Source of the DNA: Solirubrobacterales bacterium
GTDB taxonomy: Bacteria; Actinomycetota; Thermoleophilia; Solirubrobacterales; Solirubrobacteraceae
Length of the DNA stretch: 64,000 nucleotides
Assembly: GCA_003244205.1 (NCBI GenBank)
Contig: QHBW01000089.1
Location: forward strand, 49-64,048
Direction of reading: 5' to 3'
In this document: piece by piece, positions 3,495 through 42,405 of the stretch
How the letters are laid out: every line of letters starts with the position of its first letter
Position numbering within the stretch: the first letter of the stretch is position 1
Notes under the pieces: model-generated
Databases searched by the model: none
Told to the model about the DNA's origin: nothing
What the model saw: only the letters and a program-made list of their open reading frames with translations
Translations under genes and position numbers: made by a program

Positions 3495-4489
3495 AACGCG
3501 CTGACCAAGCGCGCCGCGGCCAGCTCGAGCTGCTCCGGCGAAGATCCCTCGAGCACCATCTGCAGGTCGAGCATGCGCGCCGCGAAGGCGTCGAGTCGGC
3601 GCTCGCCGACGACGGCAAAGCAGGGCACGCCCGCCTGCCGGCAGCGTGTTGCCGCCTCCCAGACGAGCTTGCCTTCCATCGTGCTCTCGTCGAGTCGCCC
3701 CTCCCCGAGGACGACGGCGTGAGCCGCGCGCATGCGCGCGTCGAAGTCGAGTGCCCCGAGCACGAAGGCAGCGCCCGGCTCCAGACGGGCGCCGAGCTCT
3801 GCCCACAGCCCCCCGGAGAGGCCGCCGGCCGCGCCCGTCAGCGGCAGGCCCCGAGGGTCGCGCGCCATCCGCGCGGCGAGCCGATCGAGGCGCCTGGACA
3901 GCCGGCGGACGGTCGCGGGGTCGGCGCCCTTCTGCGGACCAAAGACTTCGGCCGCGCGCTCCCACGGGGTGCGCACGTCGCAAAGGACCACGACCGATGT
4001 CCCAGGCTCGAGGCCCCCGGCGTCGCGGATCGCCGCGAGCGCTCCCGCCCCACCATCGCTCGTCGCGCTCCCTCCGGCCGCGACGAGCACCTCGCTTGCC
4101 CCGGCGCGCGCGGCGGCGACGATCAGCTCGCCGGTACCGCGTGTAGAGGCCGCGAAGGGGTCGCGCTCGGACTCGCTCAAGAGCGCGATGCCACTCGCCG
4201 CAGCCGCCTCGACGACGGCCAGGCCGCTCCGACCGCCGTCCAGCAGCACGAACGAGGCCTCGATCTCTCTGCCGAGCGGGTCATGGACGCGGGCCAGCTG
4301 GGTCTCACCGCCGAGCCCCAGCCGCAGCGCCTCCGCGGTGCCCTCGCCGCCGTCGGCGACCGGGCAGAGGTCAACTGCCGGCCAGCCGCCGGCCCGCAGC
4401 CCGCGCGCGATCGCGTTGGCCACCTCGGTCGCACTGAGCGTGCCCTTGAAGGCATCGGGGGCCACGAGCACCGGGTCGTGCGTTCTCAT
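3491..4489 (-). CDS. glxK: glycerate kinase (GlxK/GarK family)
   Basis: ORF 3491..4489. The N-terminus VLVAPDAFKGTLSA, PVADGGEGT and GEGRLDESTMEGK are glycerate kinase hallmarks. Confidence 0.85.
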   Translation of the reverse strand: MRTHDPVLVAPDAFKGTLSATEVANAIARGLRAGGWPAVDLCPVADGGEGTAEALRLGLGGETQLARVHDPLGREIEASFVLLDGGRSGLAVVEAAAASGIALLSESERDPFAASTRGTGELIVAAARAGASEVLVAAGGSATSDGGAGALAAIRDAGGLEPGTSVVVLCDVRTPWERAAEVFGPQKGADPATVRRLSRRLDRLAARMARDPRGLPLTGAAGGLSGGLWAELGARLEPGAAFVLGALDFDARMRAAHAVVLGEGRLDESTMEGKLVWEAATRCRQAGVPCFAVVGERRLDAFAARMLDLQMVLEGSSPEQLELAAARLVSAF

Positions 4490-38791: not shown

Positions 38792-39903
38792 TGCACAGCG
38801 ATCTGCTCATCGTCCTCGTCGTGGGCACTTCGCTCGCCTTCGATTTCACCAATGGGTTTCACGACACCGCCAATGTCGTCGCCACCTCGATCTCCACCCG
38901 CGCGCTGTCACCGCGGGTGGCGATCGCGCTAGCGGCCGTGCTGAACTTCGCCGGGGCGTTCATCTCGCTGAAGGTGGCGGCCACGATCGCCAAGGGCATT
39001 GTCGATGCCGGCGCGATCAGCATGATCATCGTCTTCGCTGGGCTGATCGGCGCGATCGTCTGGAATCTCGCAACCTGGTATCTGGGGTTGCCCTCGAGCT
39101 CATCGCACGCACTGATCGGGGGCGTCGTCGGCGCGTCGCTGGCTGCGCACGGGAGCAGTGGGGTGCACTTCGACGGACTGCTGGGGAAGGTCATCGTCCC
39201 CGCCCTGCTCTCGCCGCTGCTCGCCTTCGCGGTCGCGGGGCTCGCCATCCTCTTCACCTATCGGATGGTTGGGCGACTTCGTCCCGGCCCGGCGAAGCGT
39301 GGCTTCCGTCTTGGACAGGTCTTCTCGGGCGGCATGCTCGCGCTCGCGCACGGGACAAACGACGCCCAGAAGACGATGGGCGTCATCACGCTCGCGCTCG
39401 TCGCCCACGGTGACCTGCCGGGCAAGCACTTCGCGGTTCCCGACTGGGTCGTTGTCTCCGCGGCGTCGGCGATCGCGCTAGGCACCTACGCGGGTGGCTG
39501 GCGCATCATCAGGACGATGGGCTCGCGCATCATCAAGATGGACCCCGCTCAAGGCTTCACGGCTCAGACCGCGGGCGCCACCGTCATATTGGCCGCCTCG
39601 CACGTCGGTTTCCCGCTCTCCACGACCCACGTGATGGCGGGTGGGGTAATGGGGGCTGGAGCAGGCAAGCGCGTGTCCGCAGTGCGCTGGGGCGTGGCCA
39701 GCAACATGGCCATCGCCTGGATCCTCACGCTCCCGGCAGCCGCCGCAGCCGGAGCCGTCACCTACGTCGCCAGCCGCGTCTTTGGCAACGGGGCTCTGGG
39801 TCCATCGATTGTCATCGTCGTGGCTGCTTGCCTGCTTTTGGCAGCCGCAGTACGGCGATCGAATCGACTCGCAGCGCTGCGACCCTCGGGCGTGAGCTCA
39901 TGA
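38791..39903 (+). CDS. pit: inorganic phosphate transporter, PiT family
   Basis: ORF 38791..39903. GFHDTANVVATSI, ALAHGTNDAQKTMGVI and STTHVMAGGVMG are present. Confidence 0.9.
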   Translation: MHSDLLIVLVVGTSLAFDFTNGFHDTANVVATSISTRALSPRVAIALAAVLNFAGAFISLKVAATIAKGIVDAGAISMIIVFAGLIGAIVWNLATWYLGLPSSSSHALIGGVVGASLAAHGSSGVHFDGLLGKVIVPALLSPLLAFAVAGLAILFTYRMVGRLRPGPAKRGFRLGQVFSGGMLALAHGTNDAQKTMGVITLALVAHGDLPGKHFAVPDWVVVSAASAIALGTYAGGWRIIRTMGSRIIKMDPAQGFTAQTAGATVILAASHVGFPLSTTHVMAGGVMGAGAGKRVSAVRWGVASNMAIAWILTLPAAAAAGAVTYVASRVFGNGALGPSIVIVVAACLLLAAAVRRSNRLAALRPSGVSS

Positions 39904-40145
39904 CCGTTGGCGCTGCGATCGTGGACACGCACGCCCTGCTGCAAGTGGTCTATGTGTCGCTGCTCTCCGGGGTTGGTCTTTGCGTCGTCTACGCCGTCGC
40001 GGTGATCGGCATCGCCCGCTCAAACGAGCACCGCAAGGCAAAGCGCACGGGCGCCGCCCTGATCCACGGCGCACTCGCGACGATCGCGGTCGCCGCCTGC
40101 GGCTGGGCGATCTTCACTGGGATCGCGATCATGGCGCAGAAGTGA
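39900..40145 (+). CDS. small two-TM membrane protein (81 aa) coupled to pit
   Basis: ATG 39900 overlaps the pit stop (ATGA). The sequence is MTVGAAIVDTHALLQVVYVSLLSGVGLCVVYAVAVIGIA... Confidence 0.5.
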   Translation: MTVGAAIVDTHALLQVVYVSLLSGVGLCVVYAVAVIGIARSNEHRKAKRTGAALIHGALATIAVAACGWAIFTGIAIMAQK

Positions 40146-40307
40146 GGACGGCGGAGCGCCGTTGGTCCCGTTTTTGGGGTGAGTGTGAGCGGTGAGAGCA
40201 CCGGCGCCTCGTAGCCGGCGAAGCTGGAACGGGTGAACGAGTCGGACGCCGGGCGACTGGTCCCTCGGCCGCTGAGGGGAGTGTTTCTCTCGCGAGGTGG
40301 GACGCGA

Positions 40308-40715
40308 TCAGGGCAGGAGCTGGAATGCCTGGGCATGCGCCGGGCGGACCACCGCGAAGTGGCGGTGGTCGAGCGTAGCGACCTGGTCGATGCTGAGGCG
40401 CTCGGCTGCGGAGACGACCGACGCGTCAACCGTCCCGAGCGGCAGGTCGTGATAGCGGGCTACAAGCTCGGCGATCCGCAACAAGTCGCCCGCGTGCACC
40501 GCAGCGATCGAGAGGTTGCCGCTCGCGAGATCACCGAGAAAGCGGACCTCGGCTTGCCAGCCTATGCGCGTGGCGAGCAGATAGCTCACTTCGGTGATCA
40601 CCAGCGCCGGCACGAGCAGCGGTCCAGGATGTGTCTCGAGCAGCTCCAGGCACTCCGCGTGGTGGGCGTCGTCAGCGTCGACGTAGGCGTACAGCGGCCC
40701 GGCGTCGACGATCAG
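40308..40715 (-). CDS. vapC: PIN-domain ribonuclease toxin VapC (135 aa if initiated at CTG 40715)
   Basis: The track ORF starts at GTG 40613. The in-frame upstream sequence (L)IVDAGPLYAYVDADDAHHAECLELLETHPGPLLVPALVITEV is the PIN N-terminus with its first catalytic Asp. There is no ATG, GTG or TTG upstream up to the in-frame stop. Confidence 0.7.
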   Translation of the reverse strand: MIVDAGPLYAYVDADDAHHAECLELLETHPGPLLVPALVITEVSYLLATRIGWQAEVRFLGDLASGNLSIAAVHAGDLLRIAELVARYHDLPLGTVDASVVSAAERLSIDQVATLDHRHFAVVRPAHAQAFQLLP

Positions 40716-40942
40716 CGCGATCGCGGCGTCTCCGCGTTGATGATCTCCTCGACGCGCTCGGAGATGTCCGCTTGGCCGCTCCCCCCGGCAGCGGCTGCGC
40801 CGAGGCGACGACGCTTCCCGGCGCCGAGGTGATGCTCAAGCGCGGCGCGAGTGATCTCTGCGATCGTGGTGCCGCGAAGGTCCGCCTCGTGCCGTAAGCG
40901 AGCGTCGAGGTCGTCCGGAAGCTTGACGCTTGTACGCTTCAT
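40712..40942 (-). CDS. vapB: ribbon-helix-helix (CopG-type) antitoxin VapB
   Basis: Starts at ATG 40942: MKRTSVKLPDDLDARLRHEADLRGTTIAEITRAALEHHL. The upstream part of track ORF 40712..41041 is read-through of the 13-bp repeat. Confidence 0.75.
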   Translation of the reverse strand: MKRTSVKLPDDLDARLRHEADLRGTTIAEITRAALEHHLGAGKRRRLGAAAAGGSGQADISERVEEIINAETPRSR

Positions 40943-40958
40943 GGTATGCCAGCATACC
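40943..40958 (-). promoter_or_regulatory. candidate VapB operator: palindrome GGTATGC-CA-GCATACC abutting the vapB start codon; TATGCT is a -10-like hexamer on the minus strand
   Basis: It is a perfect 7-bp inverted repeat read directly. RHH antitoxins typically autoregulate through such sites. Confidence 0.35.
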
Positions 40959-40967
40959 AGCGCAGGC

Positions 40968-41058
40968 GGGGGACAACAGCGGGGGACAACGGTGGGGGAC
41001 AACGGTGGGGGACAACAGTGGGGGACAACGGTGGGGGACAACGGTGGGGGACAACAGT
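40968..41058. repeat. 13-bp tandem repeat x7 (GGGGGACAAC[A/G]G[C/T]) directly fused to the 3' end of tRNA-Tyr
   Basis: The units start at 40968, 40981, 40994, 41007, 41020, 41033 and 41046. The variable position runs A,G,G,A,G,G,A, giving 39-bp higher-order periodicity. Confidence 0.95.
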
Positions 41059-41139
41059 GGGGGGAGCAGGATTCGAACCTGCGTAGGCAGAGCCAACGGG
41101 TTTACAGCCCGTCTCCTTTAACCACTCGGACATCCCCCC
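41058..41139 (-). tRNA. tRNA-Tyr (anticodon GUA), class II long variable arm
   Basis: The reverse complement is GGGGGGATGTCCGAGTGGTTAAAGGAGACGGGCTGTAAACCCGTTGGCTCTGCCTACGCAGGTTCGAATCCTGCTCCCCCCA. The anticodon arm is ACGGG-CTGTAAA-CCCGT. Confidence 0.9.
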
Positions 41140-41272
41140 GGGTGGCGGCCGATTCTAGAGCCGGCGGCGCGGCTCGGGTGGCCGTGCGGCGGGCCGGCGG
41201 CCTGCCGCGGTCCGGGGCGCCCCGCCGCGGCCCGGTGCCCGACGCGGCAGCCGGGCCAGTGGCCGGTTGTAA

Positions 41273-41283
41273 TGAATAATTCA
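41273..41283 (+). promoter_or_regulatory. Zur/Fur-type box candidate: palindrome TGAAT-A-ATTCA in an AT-rich island upstream of folE2
   Basis: The context is GTAATGAATAATTCAGCA, about 100 nt upstream of ATG 41383. It is the only AT-rich patch in this intergenic region. Confidence 0.3.
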
Positions 41284-41382
41284 GCACAAGTGGGCTACTG
41301 GGCGCCGACCGGCGACCACCGCGGCGGGCGCCCCGCACCGCGCGCGCAGGACCGCAACACCCCTACCCCTACAGTTTTCCCT

Positions 41383-42405
41383 ATGCCTTCGAGCTCGCAC
41401 CCCGTCGTCAGCCTGGACACCGCCGCCGCCCACCCCGATGTCCAGGCTGGACGTCCGGCCCTTGCGATCGGGCTCTCGCGCGTCGGCATCACCGGCGTGC
41501 GCAAGGTCATTCGCATCAGCCACAACGGCCTCGAGCAGCTCTATTCGGCCCGGATCGAGTGCTTCGTCGACCTCGGCCCGGCGCAGAAGGGCGCCCACAT
41601 GTCGCGCTTCGAGGAGGTTGTCAACGAGGCGATCGGCGAGGTCGTGCTGGGGGAGGCGCCGCTGCGCGCCGAGACGCTCGCCCAGCACATCGCCGAGCTC
41701 GTGCGCGAGCGCCAGCAGGCGCGCCGCGCCGAGGTCACGATCGACGCCACCTATCCGGAGCACAAGCCGGCGCCCGTGTCGGGCATCCTGACACAGGAGC
41801 TCTACGAGCTGCACGGCTCCGCGGTCAGCTCCGCGGCGGGCACGCGGCGGCTGGTCGGGGTCTCGGCCCAGGGCATGACAGCGTGCCCGTGCGCTCAGGG
41901 CTTCGTCGAGACCGGCGCCCGGGATCGGCTCGCCGCCGAGGGCTTCGATCCCGACACGATCGACCGCATCATCGACGCGGTGCCGGTGGCGACTCACAAC
42001 CAGCGCGGCCTCGGCACGTTGCTGATCGGATGCCCCGAGGGCTGCGAGGACGTGGAGCTCGACGCCGCCGTCCTGCTCGCGATCGTCGAGGACTCGATGT
42101 CCTCGGAGATCTACGAGCTGATGAAGCGCTCAGACGAGGCGGCGGTGGTCGAGAAGGCCCACCGCCGCCCCCGTTTCGTCGAGGACTGCGTCCGCGAGAT
42201 GATCGGCGGTGTGCTCGAACGCCTCCCCGTCCTCACCGACGGCGCCTTCGTCTCGGCCCGCCAGGAGAACCTCGAGACGATCCACCAGCACAACGTCGTG
42301 GCCGAGCGCTTCGGGCTCCTGGGCGAGCTGCGCAGAGAGGTGCTCAACGGCGGCGAGTCGCCGGCGCATCACACCTCGATGCGCGAGTGGCTCGACGGCG
42401 CCTAG
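41383..42405 (+). CDS. folE2: GTP cyclohydrolase IB (FolE2/MptA family)
   Basis: Frame of ORF 41272..42405 from ATG 41383. GITGVRKVIRI, QKGAHMSRF, GMTACPCAQ, THNQRG and the ENLETIHQHN context are present. Confidence 0.85.
   Translation: MPSSSHPVVSLDTAAAHPDVQAGRPALAIGLSRVGITGVRKVIRISHNGLEQLYSARIECFVDLGPAQKGAHMSRFEEVVNEAIGEVVLGEAPLRAETLAQHIAELVRERQQARRAEVTIDATYPEHKPAPVSGILTQELYELHGSAVSSAAGTRRLVGVSAQGMTACPCAQGFVETGARDRLAAEGFDPDTIDRIIDAVPVATHNQRGLGTLLIGCPEGCEDVELDAAVLLAIVEDSMSSEIYELMKRSDEAAVVEKAHRRPRFVEDCVREMIGGVLERLPVLTDGAFVSARQENLETIHQHNVVAERFGLLGELRREVLNGGESPAHHTSMREWLDGA

What the first reader, a model, noticed from the sequence alone, without database searches (positions are those of the whole stretch)
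40968..41058. Seven 13-bp G-rich tandem repeats fused to the 3' end of tRNA-Tyr and forming the upstream region of vapBC
Seen directly: GGGGGACAAC[A/G]G[C/T] occurs 7 times with no spacer, and the last base (41058) is the tRNA discriminator. Each unit junction (..GTGGGGGA) copies the tRNA 3' acceptor end (..GTGGGGGGA on this strand). The array therefore looks like a reiterated piece of the tRNA 3' terminus plus about 6 extra nt. The variable base runs A,G,G,A,G,G,A, which gives a 39-bp higher-order unit. Inference: tRNA 3' ends are integration (att) sites, and a TA operon sits immediately beyond. The array could be a scar or slippage product of repeated integration and excision. It could be a length-variable spacer that sets vapBC promoter geometry (TTGTCC -35-like hexamers recur on the minus strand). 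It could be a G-quadruplex-forming tract (seven G5 runs, 8-nt loops) on the template strand of tRNA-Tyr read-through. It is not CRISPR-like, because there are no spacers.
Basis: partly seen in the sequence, partly recalled or inferred. Interest (0 to 1): 0.6.

Follow-up and report, generated by a model that had tools for sequence, protein, structure and literature searches.

The report
Short repeat array behind tRNA-Tyr
A soil actinobacterium has multiplied a 13-base stretch, seeded by the last bases of its only tyrosine tRNA gene, into a 7-8-copy array just before a toxin-antitoxin gene pair. It is an ordinary slippage-type repeat, but its C-rich, structure-free RNA looks like an unusually good landing pad for the termination factor Rho.

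Summary
Seven head-to-tail 13-bp units (40968-41058) run into the acceptor end of tRNA-Tyr(GTA), and a vapBC (RHH/PIN) pair follows on the same strand.

The array is confined to one lineage. The unit occurs nowhere else in this 2.66-Mb Solirubrobacterales MAG. It is absent after tRNA-Tyr in about 120 relatives and gave no hit in two public collections. It is present in three or four assemblies and five further runs of the same organism, with 7, 7, 7 and 8 copies.

There is no att-type partner repeat and no integrase. The vapB promoter/operator (TGnTATGCT inside a palindrome) is carried by the cassette and conserved in five unrelated contexts, so the array is not its promoter.

Best reading: a young slippage minisatellite seeded by microhomology with the tRNA 3' end, a miniature of the E. 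coli tyrT/tyrV 178-bp repeats. As RNA it is the most C-rich and unstructured tRNA trailer in the genome, with YC dimers every 13 nt, which fits a Rho loading site. That function is inferred. G-quadruplex potential on the opposite strand is predicted but untested.

Modest interest.

The parts
41058..41139 (-). tRNA-Tyr(GTA), the only tRNA-Tyr gene in the genome. CCA is not encoded. Acceptor 3' strand TCCCCCC plus discriminator A (41058).
   Evidence: ARAGORN; Rfam RF00005 63.6 bits. An identical tRNA occurs in several other genera, so the tRNA is older than the array.
40968..41058 (-). Seven 13-bp units. On the transcribed (minus) strand they read CYGTTGTCCCCCR. The repeat register continues to 41063, inside the acceptor stem (7.4 copies). 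As RNA this is a 91-nt C-rich, G-poor, unstructured 3' trailer of tRNA-Tyr. As + strand DNA it is seven G5 runs plus the tRNA G6 run.
   Evidence: sequence and counts; composition, folding, G4.
40960..40967 (-). 8-nt non-repeat junction (GCCTGCGC on the minus strand) between the array and the vapB promoter/operator block.
40942..40959 (-). Cassette-borne vapB promoter/operator core TGGTATGCTGGCATACCA. It holds an extended -10 (TGnTATGCT; TATGCT at 40956-40951) inside an 8-2-8 palindrome that ends on the A of the ATG. There is no Shine-Dalgarno sequence, so the mRNA is probably near-leaderless.
   Evidence: Conserved just before the ATG in five unrelated contexts (own, L196, L198, L201, L203), with nothing conserved upstream of it. 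The promoter function itself is inferred.
40715..40942 (-). vapB, a 76-aa ribbon-helix-helix (CopG-type) antitoxin. Stop codon at 40712-40714.
   Evidence: PF01402; 933 family members, the closest outside this population 82% identical.
40308..40721 (-). vapC, a PIN-domain toxin. It is 137 aa if it starts at ATC 40721, or 135 aa from the CTG in the CTGA overlap. There is no ATG/GTG/TTG before the first catalytic Asp.
   Evidence: PF01850 on the 137-aa call in L032; only the 101-aa GTG call in L031 on identical DNA.

Best explanation
The array is a young minisatellite specific to one lineage and probably variable in length. It arose by replication slippage. The last bases of the conserved tRNA-Tyr gene (TCCCCCCA) and a similar TCCCCC 13 nt downstream formed a short direct repeat, and slipped-strand mispairing between them duplicated the 13-bp interval. 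The array then grew, partly in 39-bp (three-unit) steps, to 7-8 copies. It sits in the slot between the tRNA and a vapBC cassette that carries its own extended -10 promoter and palindromic operator. Its most likely effect is at the RNA level. tRNA-Tyr has no intrinsic terminator, so transcription continues into 91-104 nt of untranslated, C-rich (C/G about 3), G-poor, structure-free RNA with YC dimers every 13 nt. That is what Rho's primary binding sites prefer. Rho would load there and stop tRNA read-through in or just after the operator hairpin, before it can override autoregulation of vapBC. RNase Z-type 3' processing would release the CCA-less tRNA. Shown: anatomy, uniqueness, restriction to one lineage, composition and lack of structure, presence of rho, and the independent vapB promoter block. 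Inferred: the slippage origin (about 0.85-0.9) and Rho loading/termination (about 0.45). Whether that effect is selected or incidental is open.
For: Origin:
- The repeat register runs into the acceptor stem.
- An identical tRNA exists in other genera that lack the array, so copying went from the tRNA outward.
- The unit is unique in the genome.
- It is absent after tRNA-Tyr in 29 plus 89-90 relatives, with no proto-unit.
- It gave 0 hits in genome contigs and metagenome contigs.
- Over 6.2 kb, the only difference between this genome and GCA_036840235.1 is one extra unit.
- Units differ at only two positions.
- The genome is rich in tandem repeats, with 454 arrays.

Rho reading:
- A 78-nt window has C40/G13, in the top 0.028% of genome windows.
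- The array RNA folds at -1.2 kcal/mol over 91 nt, z = +2.5.
- It is the outlier among 42 tRNA trailers: C/G 2.82 vs median 0.9, MFE -1.2 vs median -34.9.
- It is the least structured of 1,658 loci with C/G >= 2.
- It holds a chain of 8 (YC)N11 steps, matching published rut criteria: a 78-nt unstructured, ribosome-free stretch with C>G and C every 11-13 nt, scored as [(YC)N9-13]n (PMC6407284, PMC6144790).
- rho is present.
- No terminator-like hairpin lies between the tRNA and vapB, whereas several relatives and other tRNAs of this genome have hairpin plus T-run trailers.
- A stable hairpin (the operator palindrome) follows the array and could act as a pause site.
- The vapB promoter lies downstream of the array, so vapBC's own mRNA would lack the rut-like tract.
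Against:
- No relative needs such a trailer: median C/G is 1.0 in 89 trailers. Any function is therefore recent, or absent.
- Youth and length variation are what a neutral repeat would show.
- The 7 vs 8 difference could be assembler collapse of three identical units. A k=31 assembly gives 4 units purely by collapse.
- C>G bias alone is a weak predictor of Rho termination.
- Rho preferences in Thermoleophilia are untested.
Confidence: 0.45

Rival explanations
1. A purely neutral minisatellite. It has the same slippage origin, but the array does nothing useful. The tRNA is simply processed out of a longer transcript, and read-through into vapBC is tolerated or ended elsewhere.
For: It is restricted to one species-level lineage. 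Units are near-identical and copy number may vary. The genome carries 454 tandem arrays, including another behind tRNA-Leu(TAA). Relatives manage with ordinary trailers.
Against: Its RNA properties are the most extreme in the genome on two independent measures. An untranslated tract of this kind is hard for Rho to ignore where rho is present. The vapB-proximal part of the array is identical in every run and assembly recovered.
Confidence: 0.35
2. A DNA structure element. The eight G5-6 runs on the + strand (the template strand for tRNA-Tyr and vapBC) fold into one or two G-quadruplexes, or the C-rich strand forms an i-motif. These would impede RNA polymerase or the replisome, acting as a roadblock or driving the array's own instability.
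For: G4Hunter 1.71, the second highest 91-nt stretch in the genome. A G4-aware fold gives two tandem quadruplexes, -70.6 vs -10.4 kcal/mol without G4.
Against: Loops are 8 nt, so the canonical G3+N1-7 motif is not met. G-runs are common at 70% GC. There is no conservation in relatives. The prediction energies are rough and there are no in vitro data.
Confidence: 0.08
3. A regulatory array for vapBC: either direct-repeat binding sites (iterons) for the RHH protein VapB, as in ParR/parC or omega, or a variable spacer that sets promoter geometry.
For: RHH proteins of other families do bind tandem direct repeats (own knowledge). The array ends 8 nt from the vapB operator block.
Against: The unit shares no sequence with the conserved palindromic operator. 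Four homologous cassettes in other contexts have the operator but no repeats. TTGTCC lies 14 nt from the -10. Extra units are added upstream and cannot alter -35/-10 spacing. The promoter scan found nothing.
Confidence: 0.05
4. A scar of repeated integration and excision at a tRNA att site.
For: The tRNA-Tyr 3' flank is a synteny breakpoint. FolE2 and PgsA on the 5' side are conserved across the order, while nothing on the 3' side is. A TA cassette sits there.
Against: There is no partner copy of the tRNA 3' half anywhere in the genome. There is no integrase among the adjacent genes. Only about 8 nt are shared with the tRNA, against 15-60 nt for typical att cores. Zero-spacer tandem units are not what site-specific recombination leaves. 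vapBC has the genome's GC content. The apparent island boundary in L032 is an assembly chimera.
Confidence: 0.03

Closest known systems
E. coli tyrT-tyrV distal repeats (178 bp x 3.1; rttR/RtT RNA, tpr)
   Same: The same tRNA species is followed at once by a tandem array whose register overlaps the tRNA 3' end, and every unit carries a copy of that end. I verified this on NC_000913.3: TRF finds 178 bp x 3.1 overlapping the last 19 nt of tyrV, and the 19-mer occurs 6 times. From my own knowledge, Rho-dependent termination of the tyrT transcript occurs in that repeat region (Kupper et al. 1978).
   Different: The unit here is 13 bp, not 178 bp. Only about 8 nt of the tRNA end are copied, not 19, and with one C fewer. 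There is no hairpin, no sRNA, no small ORF and no Rfam RtT match. It is confined to one lineage.
Bacterial intergenic minisatellites / VNTR loci (for example MIRU-VNTR of Mycobacterium tuberculosis)
   Same: Intergenic, head-to-tail, near-identical units. Copy number differs between otherwise identical strains (7 vs 8 over 6.2 kb of otherwise identical sequence). The host genome is rich in such arrays.
   Different: The unit is shorter than MIRUs (40-100 bp). It is seeded on and overlaps a tRNA gene end. Strand composition is extremely asymmetric.
Rho utilisation (rut) sites
   Same: C>G, G-poor, unstructured, untranslated, at least 78 nt, with YC dimers spaced 9-13 nt (PMC6407284, PMC6144790).
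   Different: Natural rut sites are degenerate, not perfect 13-nt repeats. Rho dependence has not been shown here.
RtT-like tRNA-trailer hairpin modules noted earlier in this scan (unchecked AI notes)
   Same: Tandem units directly behind a tRNA gene that reuse its 3' end.
   Different: Those are 54-180-bp structured modules with 16-24-nt tRNA-end copies, conserved across relatives. This array is 13 bp, unstructured and private to one lineage.

Membership tests
Minisatellite / VNTR | Head-to-tail near-identical units, more than chance would give | tested here: met
   TRF 13 bp x 7.4, score 164; 7 matches vs 0.36 expected.
Minisatellite / VNTR | Copy number differs between strains with otherwise identical flanks | tested here: inconclusive
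   7, 7, 7 and 8 copies in four assemblies. The 8-copy one has 0 mismatches over 6,231 nt. A k=31 contig with 4 units is explained by collapse.
RtT / tyrT-type tRNA-distal repeats (Rfam RF00391) | Match to the RtT covariance model | tested here: not met
   cmscan at E <= 1 over 39500-42000 finds only the tRNA and one spurious weak hit.
RtT / tyrT-type tRNA-distal repeats (Rfam RF00391) | Tandem array overlapping the tRNA 3' end, with each unit carrying a copy of that end | tested here: met
   The register extends to 41063 inside the acceptor stem. Each unit has TCCCCCA vs tRNA TCCCCCCA, so only about 8 nt are shared. E. coli anatomy was verified.
Rho-dependent terminator (rut site) | At least 70-80 nt of C>G, G-poor RNA with C/YC every 9-13 nt | tested here: met
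   C40/G13 in 78 nt, top 0.028% of windows. A (YC)N11 chain of 8. Criteria from PMC6407284 and PMC6144790.
Rho-dependent terminator (rut site) | Unstructured and free of ribosomes | tested here: met
   MFE -1.2 kcal/mol over 91 nt, and all 200 shuffles fold at least as well. It is the least structured of 1,658 C-rich loci. It lies in a tRNA trailer upstream of the vapB start.
Rho-dependent terminator (rut site) | Rho encoded by the organism | tested here: met
   PF07497 at 78 bits in a 448-aa open frame on C8.
Rho-dependent terminator (rut site) | Transcript 3' ends that depend on Rho | not testable with these tools
tRNA att site / integrative-element scar | Direct repeat of the tRNA 3' portion (about 15 nt or more) at the far end of an inserted element | tested here: not met
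   blastn-short of the tRNA and its 3' half against the whole assembly finds only 12-19-nt fragments, which are other tRNA T-arms or chance. The assembly is 93% complete.
tRNA att site / integrative-element scar | Integrase/recombinase next to the tRNA | tested here: not met
   The next genes are RHH, PIN, an 81-aa ORF, PHO4, PhoU_div and ADH.
G-quadruplex motif | Four or more G-runs of at least 3 with loops of 1-7 nt | tested here: not met
   Loops are 8 nt. The G3+N1-7 regex finds nothing; N1-12 finds two.
G-quadruplex motif | G4Hunter score of 1.5 or more / predicted G4 fold | tested here: met
   Score 1.71; two G4s at -70.6 kcal/mol in a G4-aware ViennaRNA fold. Formation in vitro was not testable.
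RHH iteron operator (ParR/omega type) | Repeats conserved with the RHH gene and related to its operator | tested here: not met
   Four homologous vapBC cassettes share only the 18-nt palindromic block and have no repeats upstream.
CRISPR array | Repeats separated by unique spacers | tested here: not met
   Units abut with no spacer.
VapBC type II toxin-antitoxin | RHH antitoxin gene followed by an overlapping or adjacent PIN toxin gene | tested here: met
   PF01402 plus PF01850. The same pairing is seen in relatives. Toxin activity was not tested.

The most novel reading that the evidence does not exclude
The array is a naturally occurring, near-ideal periodic Rho-loading site, [(YC)N11]7-8, one YC per Rho subunit. 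It would act as a length-variable insulator between the genome's only tRNA-Tyr gene and a toxin-antitoxin operon. Gain or loss of 13-bp units by slippage would tune how much strong tRNA transcription leaks into vapBC. That would be a contingency-type (phase-variable) control of a TA module acting through termination rather than through promoter spacing or reading frame.
Probability: 0.1. Interest if true: 0.6.

Novelty: new member of a known kind. Interest (0 to 1): 0.3.

Why it matters
The array is a clean, small example of how a tRNA gene's 3' end can seed a tandem array. The same layout was described in 1978 for E. coli tyrT and is still poorly understood, so this case offers a minimal version for studying how such arrays begin. 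If the Rho reading holds, it would be a natural perfectly periodic rut site. That would be useful as a defined substrate for testing how YC spacing and copy number set Rho loading, and as an example of a repeat that insulates a toxin-antitoxin operon from a strong neighbouring promoter. On a practical level, it shows that short-k assemblies collapse this locus and that conserved tRNA genes cause chimeric joins in MAG contigs. If the array is neutral, it is simply a potential strain-typing VNTR for an uncultured soil Solirubrobacterales lineage.

Tried and rejected
- **Dispersed repeat:** rejected. The 10-mer and 13-mer cores occur only in the array in 2.66 Mb.
- **Conserved element of the tRNA-Tyr locus:** rejected. 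It is absent in 29 family/order relatives and in 89-90 Solirubrobacterales loci anchored on FolE2, with no proto-unit.
- **Exact two-unit pattern in public collections:** 0 hits in genome contigs and metagenome contigs.
- **att partner repeat:** none.
- **Known RNA family:** none apart from the tRNA.
- **Sigma-70 promoter or intrinsic terminator in the array:** none.
- **Coding repeat:** rejected. The 13-bp unit shifts frame, the array overlaps a tRNA gene, and a 7-to-8 change would frameshift.
- **L032 as evidence for an island boundary at the tRNA:** rejected. The same MAG has the own-type FolE2 side on another contig that ends about 85 nt before the tRNA. The diverged tip best matches a lineage with an identical tRNA, so it is a chimeric join.
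- **The 4-unit Logan contig as a short allele:** rejected. It is exactly what k=31 collapse of one 39-bp higher-order unit produces.
- **Bosl & Kersten 1991 (PMC329039):** not held. I checked the tyrT anatomy on the K-12 genome instead.
- **Searching the L031/L032 genomes with the genome search:** not possible, because those records are not held.

Full report
**1. Observation**

On the + strand, GGGGGACAAC[A/G]G[C/T] occurs seven times with no spacer at 40968-41058. The variable base runs A,G,G,A,G,G,A. Only 0.36 matches would be expected by chance, even with one mismatch allowed.

Tandem Repeats Finder reports period 13 x 7.4 copies (score 164) and period 39 x 2.5 copies (98% matches, score 185). 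It carries the register on to 41063, inside the tRNA acceptor stem.

tRNA-Tyr(GTA) lies on the minus strand at 41058-41139 (ARAGORN; Rfam 63.6 bits), and 41058 is the discriminator A. Read on the transcribed strand, the order is:
- the tRNA, ending ...CTCCCCCCA;
- CYGTTGTCCCCCR x 7;
- GCCTGCGC;
- TGGTATGC-TG-GCATACCA, whose last A is the A of the ATG;
- vapB (RHH, PF01402, 76 aa);
- vapC (PIN, PF01850).

**2. Organism and distribution**

The genome is a 2.66-Mb draft of 100 contigs at 69.6% GC. Close FolE2 relatives are all Solirubrobacterales (Thermoleophilia), mostly soil MAGs.

The 13-mer and its 10-nt core occur nowhere else in the genome. A two-unit pattern has no exact match in 185,579 species genomes or in the JGI metagenome contigs.

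None of 29 family- or order-level relatives has it after tRNA-Tyr. FolE2 is divergently adjacent to tRNA-Tyr, so I used it as an anchor and collected 160 more loci, of which 92 hold tRNA-Tyr and 91 have it in the same divergent orientation. In the 89-90 loci with a usable trailer there is no abutting tandem array and not a single proto-unit.

FolE2 and PgsA on the 5' side of the tRNA are conserved. Nothing on the 3' side (vapBC, an 81-aa ORF, PiT, PhoU_div) is found within 2.5 kb in any of them. The tRNA 3' flank is therefore a synteny breakpoint, and the array is private to this lineage. Several other genera carry an identical tRNA-Tyr without the array, so copying went from the tRNA outward.

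**3. The same organism in other data**

Exact-protein look-ups recovered the locus in three further NCBI assemblies and in short contigs from five other runs.
- GCA_036840235.1 is identical to the window over 6,231 nt except for one extra unit. It has 8 copies with the pattern T,C,C,C,T,C,C,T.
- GCA_036719265.1 and GCA_051003075.1 have the same 7 copies as the window.
- A k=31 contig from SRR5223443 shows 4 units. That is exactly what collapse of one 39-bp higher-order unit would produce, so I do not count it.
- Contigs from four other runs start inside the array.

The array is therefore real and fixed across samples. The 7-versus-8 difference fits single-unit slippage. However, three identical consecutive units could also be collapsed by an assembler.

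**4. What it is not**

*Not an att scar.* The assembly holds no copy of the tRNA-Tyr 3' half beyond 12-19-nt fragments, which are T-arms of other tRNAs or chance matches. There is no integrase among the six adjacent genes. Only about 8 nt are shared with the tRNA. vapBC has the genome's GC content.

One apparent island boundary turned out to be an artefact. Contig L032 is 100% identical from the tRNA onward but only 75% identical on the FolE2 side. The same MAG has the own-type PgsA/FolE2 side on another contig that stops about 85 nt before the tRNA. The odd tip best matches a lineage whose tRNA-Tyr is identical to this one. It is a chimeric join through the 82-nt tRNA.

*Not the vapB promoter.* VapB belongs to a large family (933 hits; the closest outside this population is 82% identical). 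In four other genomic contexts, all followed by PIN genes, the only conserved non-coding sequence is the roughly 18 nt just before the ATG, (T)GGTATGCTGGCATAC(C). Everything upstream of that differs.

That block contains an extended -10 (TGnTATGCT) inside a palindrome typical of an RHH operator. There is no Shine-Dalgarno sequence, and 8 nt separate the -10 from the ATG, which suggests a near-leaderless mRNA. This last point is an inference from what is known of actinobacterial promoters.

Units added upstream cannot change -35/-10 spacing. The consensus scan found no promoter or terminator in the array.

*Not anything else obvious.* It is not CRISPR-like. It is not coding, because the 13-bp unit shifts frame and the array overlaps the tRNA. 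It matches no Rfam family, including RtT.

**5. Most likely origin**

The tRNA end TCCCCCCA and a TCCCCC 13 nt downstream form a short direct repeat. Slipped-strand mispairing between them duplicates the 13-bp interval. The A,G,G,A,G,G,A pattern indicates later growth in three-unit steps. The units differ at only two positions, so the array is young.

The genome is prone to this kind of event. It has 454 non-overlapping tandem arrays with TRF score of 50 or more, and this one ranks about 21st. Another tRNA, Leu(TAA) on contig C55, is also followed by a 23-bp x 3 repeat.

**6. Most likely effect**

None of the 45 tRNA genes encodes CCA, so 3' maturation must cut at the discriminator. By analogy with other bacteria this would be an RNase Z-type enzyme, which I did not test.

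Several tRNAs of this genome, and many relatives' tRNA-Tyr genes, are followed by a hairpin plus T-run. This tRNA-Tyr is not. Its trailer is instead extreme in three ways.
- **Composition:** C40/G13 in 78 nt, a C/G ratio of 3.0, in the top 0.028% of all genome windows.
- **Structure:** minimum free energy -1.2 kcal/mol for 91 nt, with all 200 shuffles folding at least as well.
- **Rank:** C/G of 2.82 against a median of 0.9, and MFE of -1.2 against a median of -34.9, among 42 tRNA trailers. It is also the least structured of 1,658 C-rich loci in the genome.

YC dimers recur every 13 nt, giving a chain of eight. These are the published criteria for a Rho utilisation site:
- at least 70-80 nt of unstructured, ribosome-free RNA with C>G and C every 11-13 nt (RhoTermPredict, PMC6407284);
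- [(YC)N9-13]n motifs, with 12-13 nt proposed to span adjacent Rho subunits (PMC6144790).

rho is present in the genome. The operator palindrome forms a stable hairpin just downstream and could act as a pause site.

I therefore think read-through from tRNA-Tyr most likely loads Rho on the array and ends before or early in vapB. vapBC's own mRNA starts downstream of the array and would escape. This is an inference at about 0.45. Whether the effect is selected or incidental cannot be told, and a purely neutral repeat is the main rival at 0.35.

**7. DNA structure**

The + strand is the template strand for tRNA-Tyr and vapBC.
- Its G4Hunter score is 1.71, the second highest 91-nt stretch in the genome.
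- A G4-aware fold gives two tandem quadruplexes that use the seven G5 runs plus the tRNA's G6 run (-70.6 vs -10.4 kcal/mol).
- The loops are 8 nt, so the canonical motif is not met.

G4 formation is plausible in vitro, but there is no evidence of a role.

**8. Comparison with what is known**

The closest precedent is the E. coli tyrT-tyrV locus, which I checked directly on NC_000913.3. A 178-bp x 3.1 array overlaps the last 19 nt of tyrV, and every unit carries that 19-mer. rttR and tpr lie inside the array. From my own knowledge, Rho-dependent termination was described in that region in 1978.

The present array shares the layout and the tRNA species. It is otherwise a minimal version: a 13-bp unit, about 8 nt of tRNA end, no hairpin, no RNA gene, no RtT match, and a single lineage.

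Earlier unchecked notes in this scan describe structured 54-180-bp RtT-like modules behind tRNAs in other phyla. This array is not one of those. It is best filed as an intergenic minisatellite/VNTR seeded on a tRNA end.

**9. Verdict**

The array is a new member of a known kind, of modest interest. Its one unusual feature is how closely a simple repeat approaches an idealised periodic Rho ligand, placed between an essential tRNA gene and a toxin-antitoxin operon.

Noticed in passing
L032 1-723 (GCA_051003075.1, JBPCLR010000025.1) vs window 41140-42008: The end of a public MAG contig is a chimera. It is 100% identical to this genome from the tRNA-Tyr 5' end onward for 3.4 kb, but only 75% identical on the FolE2 side. 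The same MAG has the correct FolE2 side on another contig that stops about 85 nt before the tRNA. The join runs through the 82-nt tRNA, which is shared by related lineages.
   Followed up: yes
window 40942-40959 (-); L196, L198, L201, L203 just upstream of vapB: An 18-nt block, (T)GGTATGCTGGCATAC(C), abuts the ATG of this VapB family in five unrelated genomic contexts. It is a self-contained extended -10 plus palindromic operator with no Shine-Dalgarno sequence, so the cassette probably travels with its own near-leaderless promoter.
   Followed up: partly
window 40613-40721 (-): vapC has no ATG/GTG/TTG before its first catalytic Asp. One annotation starts it at ATC (137 aa), others at an internal GTG (101 aa, weak PIN hit), all on identical DNA. 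PIN genes of several relatives are also called short, with a gap after vapB, so a non-canonical or coupled start may be common in this family.
   Followed up: partly
genome contig C55, 4311-4420 (after tRNA-Leu(TAA) at 4226-4310): A second tRNA of this genome is followed, after a GC-rich hairpin, by a 23-bp x 3 tandem repeat (GCGGGCGACCGTCGGATTGCCGC). It is unrelated in sequence to the tRNA-Tyr array.
   Followed up: no
whole genome (G000): None of the 45 predicted tRNA genes encodes the 3' CCA. The genome carries 454 non-overlapping tandem arrays with TRF score of 50 or more in 2.66 Mb, about one per 6 kb. Most have periods that are multiples of 3.
   Followed up: partly
window 41058-42405 and loci L035-L194: The divergent pair tRNA-Tyr / FolE2 (GTP cyclohydrolase IB), usually followed by PgsA, is conserved across Solirubrobacterales (91 of 92 loci that hold the tRNA). 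The tRNA's 3' flank differs in every genome examined, which makes it a strong synteny breakpoint.
   Followed up: partly
L215 (Logan SRR5223443 contig) vs window 40968-41058: A k=31 assembly reduces the 7-unit array to 4 units by collapsing one 39-bp higher-order repeat. Contigs from four other runs break inside the array. Copy numbers of this locus from short-k assemblies are not reliable.
   Followed up: yes
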